Of a stretch of 64,000 bases of DNA, positions 575 to 63,959 are shown one piece after another (within the stretch, counting starts at the first letter, position 1; every line of letters starts with the position of its first letter). This stretch comes from Escherichia phage vB_EcoM-E33. The stretch lies in sequence record OL780484.1. The stretch is one strand, 5' to 3'. The position numbers were made by a program, and so were the translations under genes. The notes beneath the pieces are model-generated. The model saw only the letters and a list, made by a program, of their open reading frames with translations. It was not told the origin of the DNA and searched no databases.

Positions 575-3286
575 ATGCAAGAATTCTATTTGACAGTCGA
601 ACAAATCGGTGATAATATTCTCGAACGTTACATCGATAAAAATGGTAACGAACGTAGTCGTGAAGTTCCTTACAAGCCTACAATGTTTATGCATGCTAAT
701 CCAGAGCAAGCCGTAAAATACATTGATATCTATGGTAAGGGTTGTGTTAAGAAAGAATTCGACTCTATGCGTGATGCATCCCAATGGATGAAACGTATGG
801 ACGATATGGGTCTCGAAGCCCTGGGTATGGACGACTATAAATTAGCCTATTTGTCTGATACCTATCGTAAAGAAATCAGATATGATTCTTCTAAGATTCG
901 TATTGCTAACTTCGACATCGAGGTAACATCTCCTGATGGATTCCCTGAACCAGCTCAGGCTAAACATCCTATCGATGCCATTACCCACTACGACTCGATT
1001 GACGATAAATTCTATGTATTCGACCTTTTAGTTTCGCCTTATGGTACTGTCGAAGAGTGGTCGATTAAAATCGCTGAGAAACTCCAAGACGAAGGCGGTG
1101 ACGAAGTTCCACAAGAAATCATTGACAAAATCGTTTATCTTCCGTTTAATTCTGAAGAAGAAATGATGCTTGAGTACTTGAATTTCTGGCAACAGAAAAC
1201 TCCTGTGATTTTGACTGGATGGAACGTTGAGTCGTTTGACGTACCGTACGTTTATAACCGTCTGAAAAATCTGTTCGGTGAGAACACTGCTAAGCGATTA
1301 AGCCCACATCGTAAAACTCGTGTTAAAGTTATTGAGAACATGTACGGGGCTCGTGAAATCATTACATTGTTCGGTATCTCTGTTCTGGATTATATCGACC
1401 TCTATAAAAAATTCAGCTTCACCAACCAGCCTTCTTATTCTCTGGATTATGTTTCTGAATATGAATTGAAAGTAGGTAAGTTGAAATATGATGGCCCAAT
1501 CTCCAAGTTACGTGAGACGAACCACCAACGATATATTTCCTATAACATTATCGACGTATATCGTGTAGTGCAGATTGATATGAAGCGTCAGTTCATTCTT
1601 CTGAGTTTGGACATGGGTTATTATGCCAAGATGCAGATTCAGTCGGTGTTCAGCCCAATTAAGACTTGGGACGCTATTATCTTTAATAGCCTTAAAGAAC
1701 AAGGCAAGGTAATTCCACAAGCTCGCTCACACGTGGTCCAACCTTATCCTGGTGCTTTCGTTAAGGAACCGATTCCTAACGCTTACAAATATGTAATGAG
1801 TTTCGACCTTACATCTCTGTATCCGAGTATCATTCGACAAGTGAATATAAGCCCAGAGACCATCGCAGGGACATTCGCTAACGCACCGATACATGAATAT
1901 ATTGCCGGAACTGCTCAGCGTCCTAGCGACACCTACAGTTGCTCTCCTAACGGCATGATGTACTATAAAGACCGTGAAGGTGTGATTCCGACAGAAATCA
2001 CCAAGGTATTCTTGCAGCGTAAAGAACATAAAGGTTACATGCTTGCAGCTCAACGTAATGGTGAGTTAATTAAAGAAGCATTGGAAAATCCTAATCTCTC
2101 AGTTGATAGTCCACTGGATATCGATTATCGTTTTGACTTCTCTGACGAAATCAAAGCCAAGATTAAAGCACTGTCAGCGCCTTCTTTAAGAGAAATGTTG
2201 AAGAAAGCCGAGCTCACTGAAGTTGCAGGTAACACTGCTCAGATTAACCGTAAGTTGCTTATCAACTCCCTTTATGGTGCACTTGGTAACGTATGGTTCC
2301 GTTACTATGACCTCAGGAACGCAACTGCAATCACATTGTTTGGTCAAATGGCCCTCCAATGGATTGAACGTAAGGTTAACGAATATCTGAATAGCGTGTG
2401 TAAGACTGAAAACCAGAAGTTCGTGCTCTACGGTGATACTGACTCCATTTATGTTAAGGCAGATGCAATCATCAATAAAGTAGGCGAAGATAAATTCCGT
2501 GATACTAACCACTGGGTCGACTTCTTAGATAAATTTGCACGTGAACGTATGGAACCAGCTATTGATGCAGGCTTCCGTGAGATGTGCGAATACATGAACA
2601 ACAAACAACACTTGATGTTCATGGACCGAGAAGCTATCGCAGGTCCTCCACTTGGTTCTAAAGGCCTTGGTGGATTCTGGACAGGCAAGAAACGTTATGC
2701 ACTTAACGTTTGGGACATGGAAGGTACTCGTTATGCTGAACCACACTTGAAAATCATGGGTCTCGAAACTCAGAAATCAAGTACACCTAAAGCAGTTCAG
2801 AAAGCTCTGAAGGAATGTATCCGTCGTATGCTTCAGGAAGGCGAGGCATCTTTGCAAGAATATTTCAAACAGTTTAATAAGGAATTTAACGAACTCGATT
2901 ATGTAAGCATTGCAGCAGTATCCAGTGCTAACAACATCGAGAAATATAATGAAGGTGGATTCCCGGGTTCTAAATGTCCATACCACATCAAAGGTTGCTT
3001 AGCTTACATGCGTGCTTCTGCAGGTGATTTGACTATGCCTCGTATCGTTGATGGTGAAAAGGTATATGTACTGCCACTTAAAGAAGGCAACCCGTTCGGT
3101 GAAGCTTGTATGGCATGGCCGTCAGGTATTGAACTTCCGGTTCAGATTCGTGACCAAGTCCTCCGTTGGATGGACTACAACGTACTGTTCCAAAAGACCT
3201 TTATCAAACCTCTGACCGGTTTTACTGAGTCTGCTAAAATCGACTACGAGAAAAAAGCAACATTATTTGATATGTTCGACTTTTAA
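575..3286 (+). CDS. 43: DNA polymerase gp43 (family B, 3'-5' exonuclease + polymerase)
   Basis: 903-aa product starting MQEFYLTVEQIGDN…; strong similarity by recollection to T4/RB69 gp43 incl. exo motifs (FDIEV) and polymerase motifs (SLYPSII, YGDTDS); SD AAGGAAA 7 nt upstream of ATG 575. Confidence 0.97.
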   Translation: MQEFYLTVEQIGDNILERYIDKNGNERSREVPYKPTMFMHANPEQAVKYIDIYGKGCVKKEFDSMRDASQWMKRMDDMGLEALGMDDYKLAYLSDTYRKEIRYDSSKIRIANFDIEVTSPDGFPEPAQAKHPIDAITHYDSIDDKFYVFDLLVSPYGTVEEWSIKIAEKLQDEGGDEVPQEIIDKIVYLPFNSEEEMMLEYLNFWQQKTPVILTGWNVESFDVPYVYNRLKNLFGENTAKRLSPHRKTRVKVIENMYGAREIITLFGISVLDYIDLYKKFSFTNQPSYSLDYVSEYELKVGKLKYDGPISKLRETNHQRYISYNIIDVYRVVQIDMKRQFILLSLDMGYYAKMQIQSVFSPIKTWDAIIFNSLKEQGKVIPQARSHVVQPYPGAFVKEPIPNAYKYVMSFDLTSLYPSIIRQVNISPETIAGTFANAPIHEYIAGTAQRPSDTYSCSPNGMMYYKDREGVIPTEITKVFLQRKEHKGYMLAAQRNGELIKEALENPNLSVDSPLDIDYRFDFSDEIKAKIKALSAPSLREMLKKAELTEVAGNTAQINRKLLINSLYGALGNVWFRYYDLRNATAITLFGQMALQWIERKVNEYLNSVCKTENQKFVLYGDTDSIYVKADAIINKVGEDKFRDTNHWVDFLDKFARERMEPAIDAGFREMCEYMNNKQHLMFMDREAIAGPPLGSKGLGGFWTGKKRYALNVWDMEGTRYAEPHLKIMGLETQKSSTPKAVQKALKECIRRMLQEGEASLQEYFKQFNKEFNELDYVSIAAVSSANNIEKYNEGGFPGSKCPYHIKGCLAYMRASAGDLTMPRIVDGEKVYVLPLKEGNPFGEACMAWPSGIELPVQIRDQVLRWMDYNVLFQKTFIKPLTGFTESAKIDYEKKATLFDMFDF

Positions 3287-3288
3287 GT

Positions 3289-3318
3289 GTTTACATACCA
3301 CAAGGAACGTGGTAGTAT
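3289..3318 (+). promoter_or_regulatory. T4-type early promoter (GTTTAC -35, TAGTAT -10)
   Basis: GTTTAC at 3289, ~18-nt spacer, TAGTAT, then conserved leader CTATCAACT and SD GAGGAAA before imm. Confidence 0.55.
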
Positions 3319-3348
3319 CCTTCCTATCAACTACATGAGGAAATTACA

Positions 3349-3585
3349 ATGGAAGCTTTAATCGTTAGTGCTGGTGTTTTAGGATTCGGTTCTCTGGTTA
3401 TTATGTTCATCGGTTACTTTTTACCATGGATTCTGGCTCTTCTGCGAGGCACTCGTAGTAATGTAGGAATTTTCTTCCTTAATCTCCTGTTAGGCTGGAC
3501 GATGATTGGTTGGGTAGTGGCTTTAATCTGGGCTATCGTCGCTGAACGTAAATCAAACGCACAAATCATTATTGTTAAACAATGA
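3349..3585 (+). CDS. imm: Immunity to superinfection membrane protein Imm
   Basis: 78-aa highly hydrophobic two-helix protein directly downstream of gene 43, as T4 imm. Confidence 0.8.
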   Translation: MEALIVSAGVLGFGSLVIMFIGYFLPWILALLRGTRSNVGIFFLNLLLGWTMIGWVVALIWAIVAERKSNAQIIIVKQ

Positions 3586-3726
3586 AAATAATTGTTTTAT
3601 TTCTTATAATGGCTGCCTTTACCGTTTATTGGGCAGTGGCAATTCCGCCAATGATTCCGACACTCATCATTGGATGGATTATTCTTATAGCACAAATTAA
3701 GTATAACTGTTTTAATTGAGGATATT

Positions 3727-4227
3727 ATGAAAAAGTTAATTATCGCAATGAGTATGCTCCTATCAGGTTGCGCGGTCCAATATGGTGATACAGTTTCGGC
3801 CGATGAAGTTGGTAAAGCTCGTATCGCAGCTGAACAGAAACAATTCGATGGCGAAATGAAATTCCGTGCAGGTTCTGGACTTGTGTACACCCGAGCTAAT
3901 AATCAATGCGGTAATAACTGTGCAAAATATGCTCAACAAGAAATCGAATTCCAACGTGAACAAGAGTCCAAGCGTGAAGCGGTACTAGCCAAACACCAGG
4001 CAGAAATGAAGCGTCAAGATGATTTGTACAAAAAGCAGAAACTGTATGCGATGTGCGTAAACCATATCAATCTACAGATTTCCATCCACGAGGCTCGTTA
4101 TTACGAAATGCTCGAAACCGAGAGCTTCGGTAAAGCTCGTGATTATAAGAAACAAATCGATAAGCTCAAGACCAAAGTACCGGCGGCAATAGAACAGTGT
4201 ATTGAAATCGGTAAAGATAAGATTTAA
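3727..4227 (+). CDS. Putative lipoprotein (signal peptide with lipobox LLSGC), coiled-coil rich
   Basis: N-terminus MKKLIIAMSMLLSGC; SD TGAGGA upstream. Confidence 0.6.
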   Translation: MKKLIIAMSMLLSGCAVQYGDTVSADEVGKARIAAEQKQFDGEMKFRAGSGLVYTRANNQCGNNCAKYAQQEIEFQREQESKREAVLAKHQAEMKRQDDLYKKQKLYAMCVNHINLQISIHEARYYEMLETESFGKARDYKKQIDKLKTKVPAAIEQCIEIGKDKI

Positions 4228-4287
4228 GCAATACCAATTTATTAAAAATAGTGTATAATGTACCTACATTCACTTGAGGAACAGATA

Positions 4288-5961
4288 ATGAAAAAGGTTG
4301 TTATTTTAGGCGCGGGTCTTGGCTCACGGTTGTATCCAATTACCAACGAAATCCCGAAGGTACTGGTTAACTACAAACAACATACTGTATTAAAACATTT
4401 GTATGATTTGTATAGTAATCAATCAGATGAAATTATTCTGGTTATTCACAGCAAATTTAACGACCTCGTTAAAGGCTATATTAAATCCATTAACATGATT
4501 AATAGTGATAAGCCTAAATTCACTATTCGTAACGTTGATGTTGCCAATGGTTCGGCTCATGCTATCGATTGCATTGCCGAAGATATCATTGGGCACAATG
4601 TCTTGTTTAACTGGTGTGATATTATTCCTGAAGGTCATAAAGTTGAGTGGGATAACGACTACTGTTATACCTATGGGACTGACTGTCGTTTTACATTTGA
4701 AGAACCGTACTTGCGTGAAATTGGTACCGGTGGTGGCGTAGTTGGCTTGTATCAGGTGGCTAATTGGACAGGTTTCGACCGTTCTAATTATGGTGAAGAC
4801 CTTGCTGACAACCTGGATTCAATGGTCCATTTGACTGAACGTAAGTTAGACTTTGTAGTTGATGTTGGTGACAAACTGAAACTGGCTAAGGCGCATGAAG
4901 ATTCTGAAATTAACCGTGAATTTAATAAATTAGAGTTCACCGAGAATCTAGCTATTAAAGTACCAACTAACGAATTGGGTAAAGAAATCCAATCTAAAGA
5001 AATCAATTGGTATAATTCTATTGATTCCGAATTCGTTCCTAGCATTGTAGACTTTGCTCCAGGCGAATTCATTAAAATGGAACGTATCTTTGGTCGAACC
5101 ATGGCAGATGCCTACCGGTTTATGTCTAAAGAAACTAAAGTCCTAATGGTTTATAAGGTTATTAGTGCATTACGTTCGTTCGGTGGAACTATCGATAATC
5201 CGTCCGATGAGCAATGGTATTCTGATGTTAAGAAAGAAGTATTGGACAAGGTCCTTATTCGTAATGCTTCTATTGCCGGATTGATTGAAGGCTTTGCTCC
5301 ACAGGGTATTACCCATGTTAACGACTTCAAGGTAGGCGACCCAGAAAAACTTCTTCGTCACGCCTTAGAAATTCTGTCTGAACATAAAGAACCGTACCAA
5401 CTTATTCATGGCGACCCGCACTACAGTAATATTATGTTGTCGGACGAAGGTAATATTAAAATCATCGACCCACGTGGTTATTTTGGTAATAGTTCTAAAG
5501 GCCCTGCGATTTATGATGAAGCTAAGGTGCTTTATTCTATCGATGGTTATGACAAATTTAACTCTGACCCTCTATGGGGTGGCTTAACTCGTAACGGAAC
5601 TCGTGTATTCGTTGATATTGAAAAGGTTATGCCTTTAGATGATATTCCGATGTGTACATTTAAGCACAAGCTCTGGATTGCTGTTATCTGGATGGCATTG
5701 GCAGGTTACTTTAAAAATAACCCTCTGAAAGCTCTGGGCGCTTATTACAATGGGCTATATCAACTGAGTGTGCTGCTGAAGCGGCATCCTCGTAAGCGTA
5801 AGCTTATCACAGGTGAATTCGTTGATGAAGTTCGCGACCCTATCACGGCTCAAATTATCACTCGTTGTCCTGATAAGTGGGTTTTGCTTGACCAGGAAAC
5901 TGGTGTAAAATATAAACCTACAGGTTCTACCGAACTCCACAAACAATGGAAGAAAATTTAA
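4288..5961 (+). CDS. Bifunctional sugar-1-phosphate nucleotidyltransferase / APH-choline-kinase-like kinase (557 aa)
   Basis: N-term motif ILGAGLGSRLYPIT…PKVLV (canonical G-x-G-x-R-x-P-K of NDP-sugar pyrophosphorylases); C-term catalytic loop LIHGDPHYSNIML…IIDPRGYFG (HGDxxxxN + D motif of APH/ChoK/anomeric sugar kinases); ATG 4288 with SD GAGGAA. Confidence 0.7.
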   Translation: MKKVVILGAGLGSRLYPITNEIPKVLVNYKQHTVLKHLYDLYSNQSDEIILVIHSKFNDLVKGYIKSINMINSDKPKFTIRNVDVANGSAHAIDCIAEDIIGHNVLFNWCDIIPEGHKVEWDNDYCYTYGTDCRFTFEEPYLREIGTGGGVVGLYQVANWTGFDRSNYGEDLADNLDSMVHLTERKLDFVVDVGDKLKLAKAHEDSEINREFNKLEFTENLAIKVPTNELGKEIQSKEINWYNSIDSEFVPSIVDFAPGEFIKMERIFGRTMADAYRFMSKETKVLMVYKVISALRSFGGTIDNPSDEQWYSDVKKEVLDKVLIRNASIAGLIEGFAPQGITHVNDFKVGDPEKLLRHALEILSEHKEPYQLIHGDPHYSNIMLSDEGNIKIIDPRGYFGNSSKGPAIYDEAKVLYSIDGYDKFNSDPLWGGLTRNGTRVFVDIEKVMPLDDIPMCTFKHKLWIAVIWMALAGYFKNNPLKALGAYYNGLYQLSVLLKRHPRKRKLITGEFVDEVRDPITAQIITRCPDKWVLLDQETGVKYKPTGSTELHKQWKKI

Positions 5962-6320
5962 TGCATCTGTGTTTTGATATCGATAATACCATTACTCACT
6001 GGCAAGATGACCGTGATTACGAAAACTTTAAACCGGACACCGAAATGGTGTCCATGATTAATAAGCTTTATGATGAAGGGTACGAGATTACCTTGTTCAC
6101 TGCCCGTGGTATGACTTCATGCGGCCCGGGTCGAATCTTGGTTGAAGTAGTTCCTGCATTAGTTAAGAACCTTGAAAAGATTGGATTGAAATATCACAAT
6201 CTGCTTACACATAAGCCGAGTTATACTTTTATCATCGATGACCGAGCAATCCGTCCTGACCACTTTAAAGAAATGGTTCGTGAAGGAACTCTTGAAACCT
6301 ATAAGGCATATCATCCGTGA
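5946..6320 (+). CDS. Small HAD-superfamily phosphatase-like protein (124 aa)
   Basis: Motif I FDIDNTIT (DxDxT), motif II T in ITLFTARG, motif IV FIIDDR; start overlaps upstream stop. Confidence 0.6.
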   Translation: MEENLMHLCFDIDNTITHWQDDRDYENFKPDTEMVSMINKLYDEGYEITLFTARGMTSCGPGRILVEVVPALVKNLEKIGLKYHNLLTHKPSYTFIIDDRAIRPDHFKEMVREGTLETYKAYHP

Positions 6321-12038: not shown

Positions 12039-12098
12039 CAGTTTACATCAAAGGGATAATGCAGTATATTATCCCTATCAACTACCGAGGAGAACATT

Positions 12099-12392
12099 AT
12101 GAAAAAGTTATTAATCGCAGCAATTCTTGCCGTAGCATCATGTGGTACAGCCCCAGTTACTGCTGGACTTGATAAAGACCTTTGTGAATGGTCTATGACT
12201 GCAGACCAAGAATCAGTCGAACATCAGATTTATGCTGATATCATGAACATCACTAAACGTGACCGCCCTGATATGGTTAAAGAAGTGTCAGACCAATTGG
12301 CTTCAAGCGGCGTTATGCAGTATAACTATGTTCTGTATTGTGACGCTAATTTCGATAACAAAAACATCGTTAAAGAGGTGACAGGTGAATAA
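12099..12392 (+). CDS. Putative lipoprotein (lipobox VASC)
   Basis: MKKLLIAAILAVASCG… signal peptide; SD GAGGAG. Confidence 0.6.
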   Translation: MKKLLIAAILAVASCGTAPVTAGLDKDLCEWSMTADQESVEHQIYADIMNITKRDRPDMVKEVSDQLASSGVMQYNYVLYCDANFDNKNIVKEVTGE

Positions 12393-25158: not shown

Positions 25159-25335
25159 ATGCCACTTTATGATTACAAATGCCAATCTGAAGACTGTGCA
25201 AAAGAATACGAAAAAATCAAGAAAATCTCTGAAAGAGATAATGATGTTTGTCCTGATTGCCATCGGCTGGCTGTTCGGTTAGTCTCGGCTCCTAAACATG
25301 TTAATGGCGGTTTTTACGACCTGCTGACTAAGTGA
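25159..25335 (+). CDS. Zinc-ribbon protein, FmdB-like (58 aa)
   Basis: MPLYDYKCQSEDC…CPDCH: two CxxC pairs; SD AAGGAA 5 nt upstream. Confidence 0.45.
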   Translation: MPLYDYKCQSEDCAKEYEKIKKISERDNDVCPDCHRLAVRLVSAPKHVNGGFYDLLTK

Positions 25336-25341
25336 GAAATT

Positions 25342-25602
25342 ATGAAATATATTAATCGTTCTATTGCAGCTCTCGTATTAGCAGTTTCTTTGGTTGGATG
25401 TACTGATGCCGATAATGCTACCCGTGTATTGGATGCAAATGGCTACGAACAAATCCAAATCACAGGATACAACCTATTTGGCTGCTCTGAAGATGATTTC
25501 CAACGTACAGGCTTTATTGCTGTGGGTCCGACAGGTAAAAGGGTTGAAGGAACTGTTTGTTCTGGATTATTCTTTAAAAAGTCGACCATTCGATTTGATT
25601 AA
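25342..25602 (+). CDS. Putative lipoprotein (lipobox LVGC)
   Basis: MKYINRSIAALVLAVSLVGCTD…. Confidence 0.55.
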   Translation: MKYINRSIAALVLAVSLVGCTDADNATRVLDANGYEQIQITGYNLFGCSEDDFQRTGFIAVGPTGKRVEGTVCSGLFFKKSTIRFD

Positions 25603-25620
25603 GGGCTTCGGCCCTTTTAT
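25601..25620 (+). terminator. Terminator-like hairpin (aagggc-UUCG-gccctt + TTTTAT)
   Basis: Stem-loop overlapping stop of lipoprotein gene. Confidence 0.5.
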
Positions 25621-25668: not shown

Positions 25669-27486
25669 ATGATTAAGAATGAAATTAAAGTACTGTCCGA
25701 CATTGAACATATCAAAAAACGTAGTGGGATGTATATTGGCTCAAGTGCTAATGAAGCTCACGGTCGATTCCTGTTTGGTAATTTTACACAGGTAAACTAT
25801 GTTCCTGGACTGGTTAAATTAATTGATGAAATCATTGATAACTCTGTCGATGAAGCTATTCGTACCAATTTTAAATTCGCAAATAAAATTGATGTTCAAA
25901 TTAAGAATAACCAGGTTTCAGTTTCTGATAATGGTCGTGGTATTCCACAAGCAATGGTCACCGACCAAAATGGTGAACAGATTCCAGGTCCTGTAGCTGC
26001 ATGGACTATTCCAAAGGCAGGTGGTAACTTTGGAGATGACGCTGAGCGTAAGACAGGCGGCATGAATGGTGTCGGTAGTAGTTTAACTAATATCTTCTCT
26101 GTTTTGTTCACAGGCATCACCTCTGATGGTGAGAATGAGATTACTGTTAACTGTTCAAACGGAATGGAAAACAAAGGTTGGTCTACTAAGAAATCTAAAG
26201 GTAAGGGTACTTCGGTTATATTCACCCCAGACTTTAATCATTTCGAAGAAAATAGCCTGTCACAAATTTATCTGGATATTACATTAGACCGATTGCAAAC
26301 TCTGGCCGTAGTTTATCCTGATATTCAATTTACTTTTAATGGTAAAAAAGTAGATGGCAACTTTAAAAAGTATGCTAAGCAATTTGGTGAAGACTTTGTA
26401 ATCCAAGAAACCGATAATGTTTCGATGGCGTTCACTCCTTCTCCGGATGGATTCCGTCAACTGACTTATGTAAACAATATCCACACCAAGAATGGTGGCC
26501 ACCACGTTGAATGTGTATTCGATGATATTTGTGAACACCTTCTGCCAGGCATTAAAAAGAAATACCGTGGAATTGAAGTAACTAAAGCTCGTGTTAAAGA
26601 ATGCCTTACGATGGTGATGTTCATTCGTGATATGAGCAACATGCGTTTTGATTCACAGACTAAAGAACGTTTGACCTCTCCTTTTGGTGAGATTCGCAAT
26701 CATATCCAAATTGATGCTAAAAAAATTGCTCAAGCCATTCTTAAAGTTGATGGGTTGATTATGCCTATCGTTGAAGCTGCTTTAGCACGTAAATTAGCAG
26801 CTGAAAAGGCTGCCGAAACTAAAGCCGCTAAGAAAGCTTCTAAAGCCAAGGTCCATAAGCATATTAAAGCTAACCTATACGGCAAAGATGCTGATACAAC
26901 CCTGTTCCTAACCGAAGGTGATTCCGCTATGGGTCCTTTCATTGAAGTCCGTAATAAAGACCTTCAAGGTGGCTATCCATTACGTGGTAAGGTTATGAAT
27001 ACCTGGGGAATGACAGCAACAGATATCATGAAGAACAAGGAACTATTTGATATCTGTGCAATCACTGGATTGGTTATTGGTGAACCCGCAGAGAAAACCA
27101 ACTATCGTAATATTGCTATTATGACCGATGCCGATGTGGATGGTACTGGTTCGATTTATCCATCATTGCTAGCCTTCTTTAGTCAATGGCCTGAATTGTT
27201 CGAACAAGGCCGAGTACGTTTCTGTAAAACTCCGGTAATTATTGCCCAGGTTGGTAAAGAACAGGAATGGTTCTATGATGTGCCTAGTTATACCAAAGCT
27301 AAGGATTCTCTACCAAAACATTCTATTCGTTATATCAAAGGACTAGGTTCTCTTGAGAAAGCTGAATACCGTCGAATGATTCAAGACCCTAAATTTGATG
27401 TGGTTCAATTACCTGAAGATTGGAAAGAACAGTTCGAAATGCTCCTTGGTAATGACCCTCAACTCCGTAAGGCCTGGATGTCGTAA
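25669..27486 (+). CDS. 39: DNA topoisomerase II large subunit gp39 (GyrB-like ATPase + TOPRIM), contiguous 39+60 equivalent
   Basis: 605 aa; GHKL ATPase and TOPRIM-like regions; single uninterrupted ORF. Confidence 0.92.
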   Translation: MIKNEIKVLSDIEHIKKRSGMYIGSSANEAHGRFLFGNFTQVNYVPGLVKLIDEIIDNSVDEAIRTNFKFANKIDVQIKNNQVSVSDNGRGIPQAMVTDQNGEQIPGPVAAWTIPKAGGNFGDDAERKTGGMNGVGSSLTNIFSVLFTGITSDGENEITVNCSNGMENKGWSTKKSKGKGTSVIFTPDFNHFEENSLSQIYLDITLDRLQTLAVVYPDIQFTFNGKKVDGNFKKYAKQFGEDFVIQETDNVSMAFTPSPDGFRQLTYVNNIHTKNGGHHVECVFDDICEHLLPGIKKKYRGIEVTKARVKECLTMVMFIRDMSNMRFDSQTKERLTSPFGEIRNHIQIDAKKIAQAILKVDGLIMPIVEAALARKLAAEKAAETKAAKKASKAKVHKHIKANLYGKDADTTLFLTEGDSAMGPFIEVRNKDLQGGYPLRGKVMNTWGMTATDIMKNKELFDICAITGLVIGEPAEKTNYRNIAIMTDADVDGTGSIYPSLLAFFSQWPELFEQGRVRFCKTPVIIAQVGKEQEWFYDVPSYTKAKDSLPKHSIRYIKGLGSLEKAEYRRMIQDPKFDVVQLPEDWKEQFEMLLGNDPQLRKAWMS

Positions 27487-40614: not shown

Positions 40615-43600
40615 TTATTTTAACAATGATTTAATTAATGCTTTAAGTTCTTCAATCTCTGATTTCAATTCTGCTATTTCTGCAGTGTGCTCATTGATTG
40701 CAGCTGTATTTAAACCAATTACACCGTTATAGTTCAAACGAAGTAAAGCTTCACCATCAGGGTCACCTTCAACTAATTCTGGTAAAATAGCTTGAACTTC
40801 TTGAGCTATCAAACCGGCGTTAGGTTCCCATTTCTGATTGCCTTCTTCATCTAGGCCTCGCTTCTGCATATAAGTGTAACCATTAATTTTAGAAAGTGTT
40901 TGTGAAGCATTTTCAAATTTAACGAGGTCTTTTTTAACGCGAATATCAGAACGGACATAAACATCACGGACAAACGTTGAATAGGCATCACCCTGTTGGA
41001 CTAAATGACCATGAGAAACAATTGCTTTACCGACTTCTGTCCAAAAAGCACCGGATGAATCCCATAACCCCTCATGTGCCAGACGTTGAGATCCCCATGA
41101 CGCAATATGAACACTATCGGCAAACATGTTAATACGGCCGTCACCGCCCCAGACTAAACCAGTATCATTATCACCAATAACAAGACACGGCCCGGGCCAT
41201 GCAGGGTCTCCACCACCAGCTGATAATCTTGCTCCAGTTTTAACCATATTAGGAACATACAGAACTCCATTGTGATGGAATTCATAGATAGCTTGTGGGT
41301 CTTGACCATTTTCCTGGTTACCTACACGAATAATACCTTGCGCCCAAGTATTAGTAATGCGTCGCATACCAAAATCTACACCCGATATGTATCCTTCGTT
41401 AGTAATACCAGATTTTCCTTTGATAATCGGGTAATAACTATCATTACCAACATTACCAAAATCTACAAACACCGGAGCTTCTTGTCGCCATTGATTACCC
41501 CAATCGCCAGCTTGGTGTGCAGCCCATTGTGAACCCTTTATATAAAGACGGTCCCTATTAAAATAAAAAGTATCCGCCCCTTGAGGAGCTAAACCAACTT
41601 CTCCACTATTATGAATATTAACGCCTGAATTAGTTTGGAAACTATAAAACGATAAGTTGTTATCAGCGCCGCCATTACCAACATACCAGTTATTAACGCC
41701 TGCTTTTTGTCCTTTCACATAACCAGATTCGGTTGCAGCACTGTTAATAACAATAGCATCCGAGTTTGCATTGATAGTTAAGCGGCCGGTCATCGTGTCG
41801 CCTTCTTTAGCCACACGGGAGGCAATAGCATCATGAATGTTAGTTATATCACCAGCAGAGGTAAATACGTTCCAAATGTTGGAGAAGATATTACCATTTC
41901 GAGCAATAGTAGCTTCACCGCCGCCAACCTGTACGTTATCCGGGAAATTAACTGTACCATCAGCATTAAATCTTGATGTATGACCTTGGGTCCCGTCTTC
42001 TTTGTAATGATGCAAAACAAAAGTCCCGGAATTAATTTCAGTACCTAAAGACCAAACAGCTTTTCCTTGTAAGAATTTCTGCTTAACAATAGGATAATAT
42101 TTACTTACCGCGTCATCATCAATTTCTTGGAAAACAGGAGCTGCTTGTGCATATTGAATATCGTAACCGCCTGCACCTGCACCATGTCCACCGAATTTAA
42201 TATAACCGTTTGCTGCAAAAAAAGCATAACTCAAATCTAGGTCAGGAATAACAACCTTACCGGTATCCAATGCCAAACTAAATGGACGAAGTGGTCCGAT
42301 ATCACCATTTTTACCTTCACCGTAAGCAGTTGGAATAATATGAAGACTTCCTTCTGAACGTCTAAAAATGGCACCGTAATCATTGTTCCAAATACGAAGA
42401 CCATTTACAGCATTTGTCGCGATTTCACCGGCTGCGCTGATTGTACCGTCAAATGTAGCATTTTTTACTACAGTCAAGTTTTCATTAACAATCTGGGTGC
42501 CATTTAGAACCGATTCGACTTTACCAGCAGTTGTTCGTTGAATATATTGCATCCAGCTAGTAGCATCAGATATTTCCATTACGTTTTTACGGTCGCCATC
42601 AACATTAGTAAAGGTATTACCCCAAACGCTGATAGTCATATTATCAACTGAACTACTTCCTGTAGTATTTCCTCTGAACATTAGTGTAGAAGCATTGTTG
42701 TGGCCATCAATATTAACCGAACCACCAACAACATCAATATTACCAGGAGTAACTAACAAACCACCAGCGGTGTTAACGTTTGTAGTACCCTTACCACGGA
42801 AATAGTGGTGATAATTGCCACCTTGATAATAACCTAAAAGAGTTTGACCGTCGCCATACGCGTTATTATCATGATAAGTGACAACCGTCGCCAAAGCATA
42901 GTTTTCCGACGGAGGAGTGGTTAAATCGGTACCGTTTACAGAATAACCCATAACCATTTTTCTAAGACTGGTGGTTTCTGCAGGGCCGTACAGGAAAGTT
43001 CTCGTGCCGTTATTAACGCTGAAATAATATCCATCCTGATGCCATTTTAACCCGGTGTCATTATCGCCAAGAGCAATTGAAGCCGTTCCTAATTCAGAAT
43101 ATCCTTTAGAGTTACCTGGGGTGCCTACAGAAATAGAATGGCCTGCTTTCAATCCACCGGACCAGGTAAATGACCAAAGATAAGCTTCTAAGCCGTCGCC
43201 GGCATACCAGGTTATTCCGTCATTATCTTTAACTTCATGGAAAATGCTCGAACTAACGGCATTTCGCATAACACGAAGGTGGTTAATAGCTGTTTCACTT
43301 TCTGCCAATGGGGTATTATCGGCCATTGAATAGATATCATAATCACCTTTAACCTTTTTATTAGTAATAACTTTATTGGTATAAATTACCGGAGTTGATA
43401 CAGATTTCCATCCAAAAACTTCAGGGGAAGAAAACACACCATTGCCTGAAAACGCGTAGGTGCTTTCGCCACTTGTCGCATAATCTTGTACGCGAATATT
43501 AACTACCTGAGTGGTCGCTCCAGCATTATTTGGCGAAAAGATAATGCCACGTTCGCGGGATGCGCCGTCAAAAAATCTCAAATGGGACGTCGATGCACTC

Positions 43601-43941
43601 TTAGAAATAAGCTCGCCACCTTCGGTCATTATCTGGCCAGCGGCAATAATGTCACGAGTTACACGAGCAATACCGGTTAAATTAAAATCACCTGTTTGGG
43701 TAAAGGTACCATTTAGGGTGTAATCGCCAGTCTGGTTGTAGTTACCGGTATGAATAACATTGCCGTCAATATTACCACCTTTAGCAAAGCCAAGGTCGAT
43801 AATCGCTCCAGTATCGTCTTTAGTAAAAAGTAAACGGTCCTTTAAGTTAATAGCCAGTTCGCCTTCAGCCAACTGGGCCGGTGCTGGACGTACACCGGCT
43901 ACTTTACTTCTTTTAAATTGGATTTGCTTTAAAGTAGCCAT
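40615..43941 (-). CDS. 37: Long tail fiber distal subunit gp37 with C-terminal intramolecular-chaperone (S74-like) domain
   Basis: 1108 aa; C-terminus …SDIRVKKDL…GYTY…[15 protein letters not shown]… + coiled coil. Confidence 0.93.
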
Positions 43942-43949
43942 AATGCCTC

Positions 43950-44597
43950 TTAATAATAACCAAAATCTTGAATAGAATCTTTAATAACAATCTGGTCAAA
44001 ACGAGGAACGTGTCCTGCGTCAGAGGCCGGATTCAGCGAAATAAAGTTAGGAGCAGCAAGTACCCCGGTCATTGTTTGCATGTTAGTATTATTTATTTGG
44101 ACTTGTTTTGCGTTATCTACTAACGATAATCCTACTTGAGCTTTAGTAGGGGTGTTGCCTGGGCTGAATACACGACCTGATTCGTCATAAACTTGACGGG
44201 ATAATGAATCACCCATTACTGTGAGGCGTTTAGCACCCACTACTGTACTTGGGTCAAATATAACGAACGGTGTACCGTCTTCCGTTTCATATCCAAAAGC
44301 ACCTTTAATACGGAAAGAAGCCGTGAACGGGGCCCCGCCAGTTCTTGCTCCTAATTTAATACCATATCCATTGGTATCATTAAAGGTCAGGCCTTTTTCA
44401 AAATACACGTTATTCTTATAATTACCACCATTTGCTTTTGAAACAAAGTCGTTATCAGCGGCTTGTGGTTTATTATATTCGGTGTAAACTTTATACGTTT
44501 TGTAAAGAAGGTCATTTGATACAGGCGTTAAGGGGAAATTACCTTGGTGCCATAATACTGAACCTCCTGCTGTAGAACCTAATTTTAAATCTGCCAT
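43950..44597 (-). CDS. 36: Long tail fiber hinge connector gp36
   Basis: 215 aa (T4 221 aa); synteny 35-36-37. Confidence 0.85.
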   Translation of the reverse strand: MADLKLGSTAGGSVLWHQGNFPLTPVSNDLLYKTYKVYTEYNKPQAADNDFVSKANGGNYKNNVYFEKGLTFNDTNGYGIKLGARTGGAPFTASFRIKGAFGYETEDGTPFVIFDPSTVVGAKRLTVMGDSLSRQVYDESGRVFSPGNTPTKAQVGLSLVDNAKQVQINNTNMQTMTGVLAAPNFISLNPASDAGHVPRFDQIVIKDSIQDFGYY

Positions 44598-61458: not shown

Positions 61459-61959
61459 ATGAATATGCAAATGATTACTAACGAAATGGTTGTTAAGGCT
61501 TTTGGTGACTCTACTGACGGCATCCAAGTTTTTAAAGGTTCTCGTGCAGTAGGTTACCTGACCGATCTTCGTGTCACTTTAGCTAAAAATGCTAAAAAGA
61601 AAATCAAGCAAAAAGAATACTCTACCCGTTATGCAGAAGAAAAGCGTGAAGCAATGCCTCAAGCTGTTAACTCTATGGTCGAGTTTCTCCAAAACAACCT
61701 TTCCAAATACGATGCCGAGGTGTTTATTAATATTAGCCAACCTAATGTTAAAATCTCAGGCATCACGTTCTATTTGATTTGCGACCCATTAAGCGACAAG
61801 TTTAATCGCCTTGGCATTTCAAGTCCTTACCATACCGCTGAAGAATTGTGTTTTATGTTCGAAACGTACAAAATTCAGTGTGAAAATCCTAAAACAGTTC
61901 TTATTAATTCCCTGTCACGTGATGACATCATCGAGATTATTACCAAATGTCTAAATTAA
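61459..61959 (+). CDS. alc: Alc-like host transcription shutoff protein
   Basis: 166 aa (T4 Alc 167 aa); position between 63 and spanins as in T4; sequence not independently recognised. Confidence 0.55.
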   Translation: MNMQMITNEMVVKAFGDSTDGIQVFKGSRAVGYLTDLRVTLAKNAKKKIKQKEYSTRYAEEKREAMPQAVNSMVEFLQNNLSKYDAEVFINISQPNVKISGITFYLICDPLSDKFNRLGISSPYHTAEELCFMFETYKIQCENPKTVLINSLSRDDIIEIITKCLN

Positions 61960-62300
61960 GTATTTACCTTTTAGCTGGAGCCATTGCAGTAGGTGCTTAC
62001 GGTTTTATTTCGTATCAATCAAGTCGTATTGATACCCTTACTGAAGAACTGAAAACTACCCAGCAAACGGCCAAACAGAATGCCGAAGCCGTAGAGGACC
62101 TACGTGGCCAATACTCGGATATTGAATTCCGTACTACTGAAATGAATGCCCGAATGGATAAAATTAAGGTAGAAAATGAAAAGCTCCGTAAAGATTCGAA
62201 GAAGGCGCACGTGGTGGCAAGTAAGCCAGGATTGGTCGAAAAACAAATCAACAAGTCCTTCGATTCCTTTACAGAAGACTTCAGGAGCATTACAGAATGA
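61947..62300 (+). CDS. i-spanin (Rz-like; T4 PseT.3 equivalent)
   Basis: N-terminal TM segment (IYLLAGAIAVGAYGFISY) followed by coiled-coil periplasmic domain. Confidence 0.7.
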   Translation: MSKLSIYLLAGAIAVGAYGFISYQSSRIDTLTEELKTTQQTAKQNAEAVEDLRGQYSDIEFRTTEMNARMDKIKVENEKLRKDSKKAHVVASKPGLVEKQINKSFDSFTEDFRSITE

Positions 62301-62587
62301 TTAAATTATCTGTGGTAGTATTATCTATTGGCTTGTTAGTTGGATGTGCCCAGGACATCCCTGTAGTGCCTAAGCAACAACTACATCCTTCATGGCCACA
62401 ACCTATTGCCAAACATAATGTTAAATGGCAGGTTAAGGTAATCGATGGTAAAGCTTGGGTTGGAATGCCATTTGAAGATTCCCAAGAACATCGTATTTGG
62501 TTGAATGACGTAAAAAGATATGTACAAGACCAGAAATCTATGTTATGTTATTATCGTTCTGGACTAAAAGAGGGGAAGTGCAAATGA
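62297..62587 (+). CDS. o-spanin lipoprotein (Rz1-like; T4 PseT.2 equivalent)
   Basis: Lipobox LLVGC, Pro-rich mature region, C-terminal Cys; start overlaps i-spanin stop. Confidence 0.7.
   Translation: MIKLSVVVLSIGLLVGCAQDIPVVPKQQLHPSWPQPIAKHNVKWQVKVIDGKAWVGMPFEDSQEHRIWLNDVKRYVQDQKSMLCYYRSGLKEGKCK

Positions 62588-62754: not shown

Positions 62755-63958
<1,204 letters not shown>

Positions 63959-63959
<1 letters not shown>

What the first reader, a model, noticed from the sequence alone, without database searches (positions are those of the whole stretch)
3727..4227. Three early lipoproteins with canonical lipoboxes (3727, 12099, 25342)
The lipobox sequences LLSGC, VASC and LVGC each follow an N-terminal signal peptide on early-expressed genes; the first sits directly after imm. 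Phage early lipoproteins often mediate superinfection exclusion by blocking receptors or DNA injection.
Basis: inference. Interest (0 to 1): 0.35.

Follow-up and report, generated by a model that had tools for sequence, protein, structure and literature searches.

The report
T-even phage Imm.1-family early lipoprotein
The flagged gene encodes a predicted outer-membrane lipoprotein of the uncharacterised phage T4 Imm.1 family; of the two other "lipoproteins", one is the known soluble periplasmic protein Spackle and the other is the conserved, uncharacterised gp39.1, so the finding is mostly ordinary.

Summary
The window is a JS98-like T-even phage (Dhakavirus, 99.6% identical to Shigella phage PSD9).

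- **3727-4227:** a 166-aa prolipoprotein of the T4 Imm.1 family (phrog_1754). The lipobox Cys is almost invariant in the family. It has no Pfam, PDB or literature function. It probably shares an early-type promoter with imm and a 45-aa membrane protein. Its C-terminal helical third is a swappable cassette.
- **12099-12392:** Spackle, already known as a superinfection-exclusion protein. For T4 Spackle, N-terminal sequencing shows cleavage after residue 22 and a soluble periplasmic protein, so it is not a demonstrated lipoprotein. Its lipobox-like SC is nevertheless invariant.
- **25342-25602:** gp39.1, a small lipoprotein with an invariant lipobox Cys in 68 aligned homologs. The predicted fold is a helix plus a four-strand sheet. 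Function is unknown.
- **62297-62587:**

A superinfection-exclusion role for the Imm.1-like protein rests only on its linkage to imm in three different gene arrangements. At least one genus has the lipoprotein with no imm nearby. Verdict: new member of a known, uncharacterised kind; modest interest.

The parts
3290..3318 (+). Promoter-like site of the T4-early type (TTTACA-17 nt-TAGTAT, with TG before the -10), just after the gene 43 stop and before imm
   Evidence: Consensus scan. Function is inferred.
3349..3585 (+). imm, the superinfection immunity inner-membrane protein (78 aa)
   Evidence: Pfam PF14373, E 5e-18; phrog_1039; annotated as imm in JS98.
3582..3719 (+). Conserved 45-aa hydrophobic (predicted membrane) protein. 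Its start overlaps the imm stop (ATGA).
   Evidence: phrog_3610, E 1.7e-21. Homologues lie near the lipoprotein gene in five genera.
3727..4227 (+). Imm.1-family prolipoprotein, 166 aa. Signal peptide and lipobox LLSGC occupy codons 1-15 (3727-3771). The conserved N-terminal region includes GSGLVY and NQCGNNC. The rest is a helical C-terminal region with Cys110 and Cys158.
   Evidence: phrog_1754, E 3.5e-52. T4 Imm.1 matches the same PHROG at E 6e-43. hhalign probability 96.4%. Alignments. AlphaFold2 model.
4018..4227 (+). Variable C-terminal cassette of the lipoprotein gene (codons about 98-166)
   Evidence: In an otherwise 92-100% identical Dhakavirus contig (L007), DNA identity drops to about 40% over exactly this stretch.
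12042..12070 (+). Promoter-like site of the T4-early type (TTTACA-17 nt-TATATT) about 29 nt upstream of sp
   Evidence: Consensus scan. Function is inferred.
12099..12392 (+). sp (gene 61.3), Spackle, the periplasmic inhibitor of the gp5 tail lysozyme. The VASC motif lies inside the signal peptide. The predicted signal peptidase I site is VTA|G after residue 22.
   Evidence: Pfam PF25676, E 1e-42. PDB 6x6o and 7cn6. PMC7650644 and PMC7677548.
25342..25602 (+). Gene 39.1 homologue, an 86-aa prolipoprotein (lipobox LVGC, Cys20; mature part about 66 aa with Cys48 and Cys73)
   Evidence: phrog_902, E 6e-35. JS98 gp39.1 is 99% identical. The Cys is invariant in 68 aligned homologs. AlphaFold2 pLDDT 78.
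25601..25616 (+). Terminator-like GC hairpin (AAGGGCTTCGGCCCTT followed by a T-rich tail) at the end of 39.1, before gene 39
   Evidence: Consensus scan.
61947..62300 (+). i-spanin (117 aa, N-terminal membrane anchor)
   Evidence: phrog_739, Rz-like spanin, E 3.5e-37.
62297..62587 (+). o-spanin, the fourth lipobox protein of the window (LLVGC, Cys17).
   Evidence: Lipobox scan; phrog_812, Rz-like spanin, E 4e-43.

Best explanation
**Identity (shown).** Gene 3727-4227 encodes the Dhakavirus member of the T4 Imm.1 family (phrog_1754), an early, non-structural envelope protein.

**Processing and location (inferred from sequence and the standard E. coli pathway).**
- The precursor is exported by Sec.
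- It is lipid-modified at Cys15 by Lgt, cut by signal peptidase II, and N-acylated by Lnt.

**Mature protein.**
- A conserved membrane-proximal segment (GDxV...EVGK, also present in T4 Imm.1).
- A conserved hairpin-plus-CGNNC motif.
- A long helical hairpin probably clamped by a Cys110-Cys158 disulfide.
- The last 70 or so residues are exchanged as a cassette between otherwise near-identical phages.

**Expression.** It is probably transcribed with imm and a 45-aa membrane protein from an early promoter.

**Function (hypothesis only, about 0.3).** It acts from the outer-membrane side in protecting the infected cell's envelope against later-arriving phages, through exclusion or resistance to lysis from without. 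The variable helical domain would contact a variable partner.

**The other two genes.**
- Gene 12099 is Spackle, a known soluble periplasmic inhibitor of the gp5 tail lysozyme. Its lipobox-like motif sits inside a signal peptide that is cleaved by signal peptidase I in T4.
- Gene 25342 is gp39.1, a conserved small lipoprotein, predicted to go to the outer membrane, with a helix plus four-strand sheet (cystatin/PepSY-like). Its function is unknown.
For: **Family membership.** The window protein and T4 Imm.1 both match phrog_1754 over their full length. hhalign gives probability 96.4%, E 1e-9. A joint alignment shows a shared lipobox, tether motif and C-terminal Cys pair.

**Lipobox.** The Cys is present in at least 90% of 19 cluster representatives and in six genera.

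**Export.** The mature part has four further Cys; Cys110 and Cys158 are conserved across the family and Cys61/Cys65 in most members, which fits an oxidising periplasm.

**Real gene.** Changes relative to JS98 are mostly synonymous.

**Early expression.** A promoter-like site lies upstream. T4 imm.1 is early at both RNA and protein level.

**Linkage to imm, in three different arrangements.**
- T4: 43 | imm.1 | imm | 42.
- Mosigvirus: imm.1-like | imm | sp, next to gene 61.
- Dhaka- and Gaprivervirus: 43 | imm | small ORF | lipoprotein.

**Cassette swap.** DNA identity is about 40% over 4018-4230 and 92-100% on both sides.

**Spackle.**

**gp39.1.**
Against: - No experiment on any member of the Imm.1 family was found.
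- Lipidation and outer-membrane sorting are predictions only.
- One family member (P0117) has no Cys.
- In Kanagawa-, Winkler- and Kagamiyamavirus the lipoprotein follows gene 43 with no imm beside it. CHI14 has no detectable imm in its 50-kb early region. An obligatory partnership with Imm is therefore unlikely.
- T4-like genomes are syntenic, so adjacency is weak evidence.
- The imm gene next to the swapped cassette is unchanged. The variable domain therefore does not appear to co-vary with Imm.
Confidence: 0.6

Rival explanations
1. All three proteins are signal peptidase II-processed lipoproteins. Each mediates superinfection exclusion by blocking a receptor or DNA injection, like T5 Llp or Cor.
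For: - All three have canonical lipoboxes.
- Spackle is a genuine exclusion factor.
- The first gene is linked to imm in four genera.
- T5 Llp sets the precedent: an early outer-membrane lipoprotein that blocks FhuA (abstract of bioRxiv 10.64898/2026.03.26.714494).
Against: - T4 Spackle is soluble and starts at residue 23. It works by inhibiting the gp5 lysozyme, not by blocking a receptor.
- None of the proteins shows sequence or fold similarity to any solved structure or defence model.
- gp39.1 has no linkage to exclusion genes.
- The lipoprotein occurs without a neighbouring imm in three genera.
Confidence: 0.1
2. The Imm.1-like lipoprotein does not act against other phages. It acts on the host envelope or on the phage's own lysis programme. 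Examples would be modulating a host periplasmic or outer-membrane machine (peptidoglycan enzymes, Lpt/Bam/Lol, stress sensors), or tuning lysis timing or lysis inhibition.
For: - The predicted location is the periplasmic face of the outer membrane.
- It is early and non-structural.
- It persists in genera where no imm is nearby.
- A long helical hairpin anchored to the outer membrane is the general shape of several envelope-spanning or regulator lipoproteins. This comparison is from general knowledge, not a tool result.
Against: - There is no similarity to spanins or to any known regulator.
- The window already has a complete spanin pair.
- Cassette-like replacement of the C-terminal domain between near-identical phages fits a variable, conflict-type partner better than a conserved host machine.
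Confidence: 0.25
3. The lipobox of the first protein is not used. The protein would be a signal peptidase I-processed periplasmic protein, or would stay anchored by an uncleaved signal peptide.
For: - Spackle shows that a perfect lipobox-like motif in this phage group can sit in a peptide cleaved further downstream.
- One family member lacks the Cys.
- The motif rule alone is only about 3-fold above chance.
Against: - The Cys sits at the very end of the hydrophobic stretch in at least 90% of the family, across 22-100% identity.
- There is no conserved Ala-X-Ala-type site downstream comparable to Spackle's invariant P19...A22.
- Four members give weak hits to Pfam LPAM_1.
Confidence: 0.1

Closest known systems
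T4 Imm.1 (gene imm.1, NP_049661; phrog_1754)
   Same: - Same PHROG.
- Same lipobox and membrane-proximal motif (G-x-x-V-x-x-x-D/E-V-G-K).
- Same C-terminal pair of Cys.
- Early gene beside imm and gene 43.
- Function unknown in both.
   Different: - The window protein is 41 residues longer.
- It carries a GSGLVY...NQCGNNC motif and a long helix that T4 and Mosigvirus Imm.1 lack.
- hhalign aligns only the first 51 residues.
- Gene order relative to imm is reversed, and a 45-aa ORF lies between them.
T5 Llp (and Cor of phi80/N15/HK022): early outer-membrane lipoproteins that block FhuA
   Same: A small phage-encoded lipoprotein made early and predicted to sit in the inner leaflet of the outer membrane. 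This is the precedent for exclusion from that location (abstracts).
   Different: - No sequence or fold similarity was detected.
- No receptor partner is known.
- The protein here is helical and about 150 residues when mature.
- No phenotype has been shown.
T4 Spackle (gp61.3), Pfam PF25676, PDB 6x6o/7cn6
   Same: The window gene 12099-12392 is a 70%-identical orthologue of the same length. It keeps the Cys29 and Cys81 disulfide residues and the A22|G23 cleavage context.
   Different: It is not a demonstrated lipoprotein. The mature T4 protein is soluble and begins at residue 23. The lipobox-like SC is nevertheless invariant in the family.
T-even gp39.1 (phrog_902)
   Same: The window gene 25342-25602 is 99% identical to JS98 gp39.1 and about 80% identical to Tequatrovirus gp39.1. 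Some sources already label it 'Lipoprotein'.
   Different: The T4 reference record annotates only a 65-aa product without the signal peptide, because of sequence lesions. Function is unknown everywhere.

Membership tests
Bacterial prolipoprotein (signal peptidase II substrate, PROSITE PS51257-type) | Positively charged N-terminal region, then an uncharged hydrophobic stretch, then a lipobox [LVI][ASTVI][GAS]C with the Cys at position 15-35 | tested here: met
   All of 3727, 12099, 25342 and 62297 pass.
Bacterial prolipoprotein (signal peptidase II substrate, PROSITE PS51257-type) | Lipobox Cys conserved across the family | tested here: met
   Imm.1-like family: at least 90% of members. gp39.1: invariant in 68 aligned homologs. 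Spackle: invariant in 26.
Bacterial prolipoprotein (signal peptidase II substrate, PROSITE PS51257-type) | Diacylglyceryl modification and globomycin-sensitive cleavage in vivo | not testable with these tools
   This needs labelling and fractionation experiments. For T4 Spackle, the published N-terminal sequence starts at residue 23, which argues against it for the soluble pool.
T4 Imm.1 family (phrog_1754) | Significant full-length match to the family profile | tested here: met
   Window protein E 3.5e-52, residues 1-163. T4 Imm.1 E 6e-43.
T4 Imm.1 family (phrog_1754) | Direct profile-to-sequence similarity to T4 Imm.1 | tested here: met
   hhalign probability 96.4%, E 1e-9, but only over residues 1-51. 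MAFFT aligns the C-terminal Cys pair.
T4 Imm.1 family (phrog_1754) | Location in the early region next to gene 43 and/or imm | tested here: met
Spackle (Pfam PF25676) | Profile match above the gathering score, and alignment to the solved mature domain with both disulfide Cys | tested here: met
   145 bits against a cutoff of 27. PDB 7cn6 aligns to residues 23-97. C29 is invariant and C81 nearly so.
Spackle (Pfam PF25676) | Signal peptidase I site after residue 22 | tested here: met
   The window has V20-T21-A22|G23. A22 and P19 are invariant. Cleavage was shown experimentally only for T4.
Known exclusion lipoproteins (T5 Llp, Cor) | Sequence or fold similarity to a characterised member | tested here: not met
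Known exclusion lipoproteins (T5 Llp, Cor) | Exclusion phenotype and a receptor partner | not testable with these tools
   This needs expression and challenge experiments.
gp39.1 family (phrog_902) | Profile match, and position immediately upstream of gene 39 | tested here: met
   E 6e-35. Gene 39 starts at 25669. The order is the same in T4 and CHI14.
Two-component spanin, outer-membrane subunit | Lipobox protein encoded immediately after, and overlapping, an i-spanin gene | tested here: met
   62297-62587 overlaps 61947-62300 by 4 nt. phrog_812 and phrog_739.

The most novel reading that the evidence does not exclude
The Imm.1-family lipoprotein would be a third, so far unrecognised component of T-even superinfection exclusion.
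- It would work from the outer membrane, alongside Imm in the inner membrane and Spackle in the periplasm.
- Its C-terminal helical domain would be a specificity module, exchanged as a cassette between phages in an arms race.

A second unexcluded reading concerns Spackle. The invariant lipobox in its signal peptide may mean that part of the Spackle pool is lipid-anchored. The published purifications of soluble protein could not have seen such a pool.
Probability: 0.2. Interest if true: 0.65.

Novelty: new member of a known kind. Interest (0 to 1): 0.33.

Why it matters
T4 superinfection exclusion is explained in textbooks by two proteins, Imm and Spackle, and how Imm works is still unclear.

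A conserved early lipoprotein travels with imm in three different gene arrangements. It also carries a swappable domain. That makes it a cheap, testable candidate for a missing outer-membrane partner. It matters for designing phage cocktails in which T-even phages should not exclude each other.

If the protein has nothing to do with exclusion, the result still corrects two annotations:
- Spackle should not be called a lipoprotein on motif grounds.
- gp39.1 and Imm.1 should be annotated as predicted lipoproteins.

Tried and rejected
- **PEi26 ORF-049.** I guessed that the 209-aa gene after the lipoprotein in PEi26 was a long Imm. It is a SIS-domain sugar isomerase.
- **LprI/DUF1311 lysozyme inhibitor.** I looked for a relation between this family and the helical Cys-pair domain. 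No Pfam hit appeared in any of 19 family members at E up to 1.
- **PDB profile searches.** Both families gave nothing meaningful.
- **Other libraries.** NCBIfam and PADLOC gave nothing.
- **Literature.** Searches for imm.1, gp39.1 and T-even lipoproteins found no functional study. The library does not hold Lu & Henning 1989 or the T4 genome review.
- **AlphaFold database.** The afdb50 library was not available.

Full report
**Source of the window.** The window is a T-even phage of the genus Dhakavirus (JS98-like). Bases 3300-6000 are 99.6% identical to Shigella phage PSD9 and 96-99% identical to about thirty other JS98-like phages. Window coordinates run opposite to T4 map coordinates. Gene 43 (DNA polymerase) ends at 3286, Spackle starts at 12099, and gene 39 starts at 25669.

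**Check of the observation.** All three ORFs exist with the stated starts.
- 3727-4227 begins MKKLIIAMSMLLSGC.
- 12099-12392 begins MKKLLIAAILAVASC.
- 25342-25602 begins MKYINRSIAALVLAVSLVGC.
- Each has a net +2 N-terminus, 11-13 uncharged hydrophobic residues, and a lipobox that passes a PROSITE PS51257-type rule.

The rule alone is weak evidence. It gives five hits among the 390 longest ORFs, against 1.5 expected when residues are shuffled. One of the five (53400) is spurious. Conservation makes the motifs credible.
- First family: the Cys is kept in at least 90% of 19 cluster representatives.
- gp39.1: the Cys is kept in all 68 aligned homologs.
- Spackle: the Cys is kept in all 26 homologs.

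It lies at 62297-62587 and is the o-spanin. It overlaps its i-spanin (61947-62300) by four bases.

**Gene 3727-4227: identity.** It has no Pfam, NCBIfam or PADLOC family. It matches phrog_1754, function unknown, at E 3.5e-52.

The family is small and confined to phages.
- A word-indexed search of 5.8 billion proteins found 11 relatives.
- A full HMMER profile search of 1.84 billion cluster representatives found 18.
- By tblastn it occurs in 113 phage records of Dhaka-, Gapriver-, Kanagawa-, Winkler- and Kagamiyamavirus. T4 itself is not among the hits.

Inspecting the T4 locus showed that T4 gene imm.1 lies in the same early region, between gene 43 and imm, on the other side of imm. It encodes MKIAILVIALGLAGCVAQGPVVNQSDVGK....
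- T4 Imm.1 matches the same PHROG at E 6e-43.
- It aligns to the family profile with hhalign probability 96.4% over residues 1-51.
- A joint alignment shows four shared features: the lipobox, a membrane-proximal G-x-x-V-x-x-x-(D/E)-V-G-K segment, a short strand, and two C-terminal Cys.

The window gene is therefore a long-form member of the Imm.1 family. T4 and Mosigvirus forms have 122-125 residues. The Dhakavirus form has 166, with an added GSGLVY...NQCGNNC motif and a long helix.

**Gene 3727-4227: anatomy.**
- A GAGGA Shine-Dalgarno sequence lies a few nt upstream of the ATG.
- Differences from JS98 fall mainly at third codon positions (23 of 35) and are mostly synonymous, so it is a real gene under purifying selection.
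- Beyond Cys15 the mature part has four Cys (61, 65, 110, 158). Cys110 and Cys158 are nearly invariant across the family. This fits an exported, disulfide-bonded protein.
- Residue +2 is Ala. By the established +2 rule of E. coli lipoprotein sorting, this predicts transfer to the outer membrane.
- AlphaFold2 gives a confident helical hairpin for residues about 90-165 (pLDDT above 90). The conserved N-terminal half is poorly modelled (pLDDT below 50).

**A swappable C-terminal domain.** The N-terminal 97 residues are much better conserved than the last 69.

A Dhakavirus-like metagenomic contig (L007) makes this sharp. Its DNA is 92-100% identical to the window on both sides, but only about 40% identical over window 4018-4230. 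Protein identity is 96% before residue 98 and 25% after it. A third type (P0005) is 77% and 39% identical over the same two regions.

The imm gene next to the swapped cassette is unchanged. The variable domain therefore does not appear to co-evolve with Imm.

**Neighbourhood.** In the window the order is:
1. gene 43;
2. an early-type promoter-like site, TTTACA-17-TAGTAT;
3. imm (3349-3585; Pfam PF14373);
4. a 45-aa hydrophobic ORF whose start overlaps the imm stop (3582-3719; phrog_3610);
5. the lipoprotein gene.

The gene is thus near imm but not directly after it.

The lipoprotein is linked to imm in three different arrangements.
- T4: 43 | imm.1 | imm | 42.
- Mosigvirus ST0: imm.1-like | imm | sp. 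This block sits at a different locus, beside the primase gene 61.
- Dhaka- and Gaprivervirus: the order seen in the window.

Linkage that survives rearrangement is suggestive. It is not universal.
- In Kanagawa-, Winkler- and Kagamiyamavirus, and in the distant member P0120, the lipoprotein follows gene 43 directly. An arabinose-5-phosphate isomerase gene comes next, and in most of these genomes the small ORF follows it.
- Serratia phage CHI14 has no detectable imm in its 50-kb early region, although it has sp and 39.1.

**Expression timing.** In T4 omics data, imm.1 and sp are early at both RNA and protein level. 39.1 is early at RNA level and late at protein level (PMC9697503 supplement). 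The sp gene of the window has its own promoter-like site, TTTACA-17-TATATT, at 12042-12070. Gene 39.1 has no promoter-like site of its own and is followed by a terminator-like hairpin.

**Gene 12099-12392 is Spackle.** Pfam PF25676 matches at E 1e-42. The protein is 70% identical to T4 gp61.3 and has the same length.

Two structural studies describe T4 Spackle as a soluble periplasmic protein of 75 residues that binds and inhibits the lysozyme domain of the tail spike gp5 (PMC7677548; PMC7650644). N-terminal sequencing of protein released from the periplasm showed that the first 22 residues are removed. The window protein keeps the corresponding site, V20-T21-A22|G23.

'Exclusion' is therefore correct and already known. 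'Lipoprotein' is not supported.

One oddity remains. S14-C15, P19 and A22 are invariant in 26 homologs down to 47% identity, while positions 4-13 vary. The published assay examined only soluble protein. It could not have seen a lipid-anchored fraction.

**Gene 25342-25602 is gp39.1.**
- It is 99% identical to JS98 gp39.1 and about 80% identical to Tequatrovirus homologues. It is present in 1064 phage records.
- The Cys at the end of the hydrophobic stretch is invariant and is usually followed by T-D/N.
- Two further invariant Cys (48, 73) suggest a disulfide.
- AlphaFold2 (pLDDT 78) predicts a helix packed on a four-strand sheet.
- BFVD returns only uncharacterised phage proteins, including ones from jumbo phages.
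- No paper on its function was found.

**Mechanism and confidence.**
- I am fairly confident (about 0.85) that the first gene encodes a lipid-anchored envelope protein of the Imm.1 family.
- I am moderately confident that it faces the periplasm from the outer membrane.
- A role in superinfection exclusion or envelope protection is only a hypothesis (about 0.3). It rests on linkage to imm, on early expression, and on a cassette-type variable domain typical of conflict proteins.
- A role in host-envelope manipulation or lysis control is about as likely (0.25).
- No known exclusion lipoprotein (Llp, Cor) is related in sequence or fold.

**Verdict.** It is already known for Spackle, though not through a lipoprotein mechanism, and it is untested for the other two. 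The flagged gene is a new member of a known but uncharacterised family.

Noticed in passing
window 4018-4227; locus L007 4292-4498: The last 70 or so codons of the lipoprotein gene are replaced by unrelated sequence (about 40% DNA identity) in a contig that is 92-100% identical on both sides. This is a cassette-like domain swap. At least three C-terminal types exist among close relatives.
   Followed up: yes
window 12099-12164 (Spackle signal peptide): The lipobox-like S14-C15, together with P19 and A22, is invariant in 26 Spackle homologs, although the T4 protein is cleaved after residue 22. A lipidated sub-population has never been looked for.
   Followed up: partly
locus L011 (T4 NC_000866 5398-5700) and locus L012 (T4 clone MZ375356): Both T4 records disrupt the 5' end of gene 39.1, in different ways. 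The reference reads LINS instead of L(V/I)GC and has a 1-nt insertion, so the annotated CDS is 65 aa with no signal peptide. The resequenced clone keeps LIGC but has a 2-nt deletion after codon 3. Other Tequatroviruses keep the intact 85-86-aa ORF.
   Followed up: partly
window 3582-3719: A 45-aa hydrophobic ORF (phrog_3610) with a conserved ...IYWAI..P.MIPTLI..W...Q.KY.CFN sequence accompanies the lipoprotein gene in five genera. It is either adjacent or separated by one gene. The JS98 annotation gives it a shorter start.
   Followed up: partly
window 4258-5961 and downstream to about 8000: A 567-aa protein combines nucleotidyltransferase and APH-type kinase domains (phrog_4098, like RB69 orf052c). 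In relatives it sits with sugar-phosphate isomerase genes and a thymidylate-synthase-like gene. This looks like a sugar-nucleotide and DNA hypermodification cluster. T4 has gene 42 and beta-glucosyltransferase at this position.
   Followed up: no
window 61947-62587: A two-component spanin pair: an i-spanin of 117 aa, and an o-spanin lipoprotein of 96 aa whose start overlaps the i-spanin by 4 nt. It lies upstream of pseT (63051-63959).
   Followed up: yes
window 25159-25335: A 58-aa CxxC...CxxC zinc-ribbon protein (homologue of T4 39.2, FmdB-like) lies immediately upstream of 39.1.
   Followed up: no
locus L009 (Mosigvirus ST0 43058-44093): In Mosigvirus, the imm.1-like gene, imm and sp lie side by side next to the primase region. 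All three envelope genes are gathered in one block, away from gene 43.
   Followed up: partly
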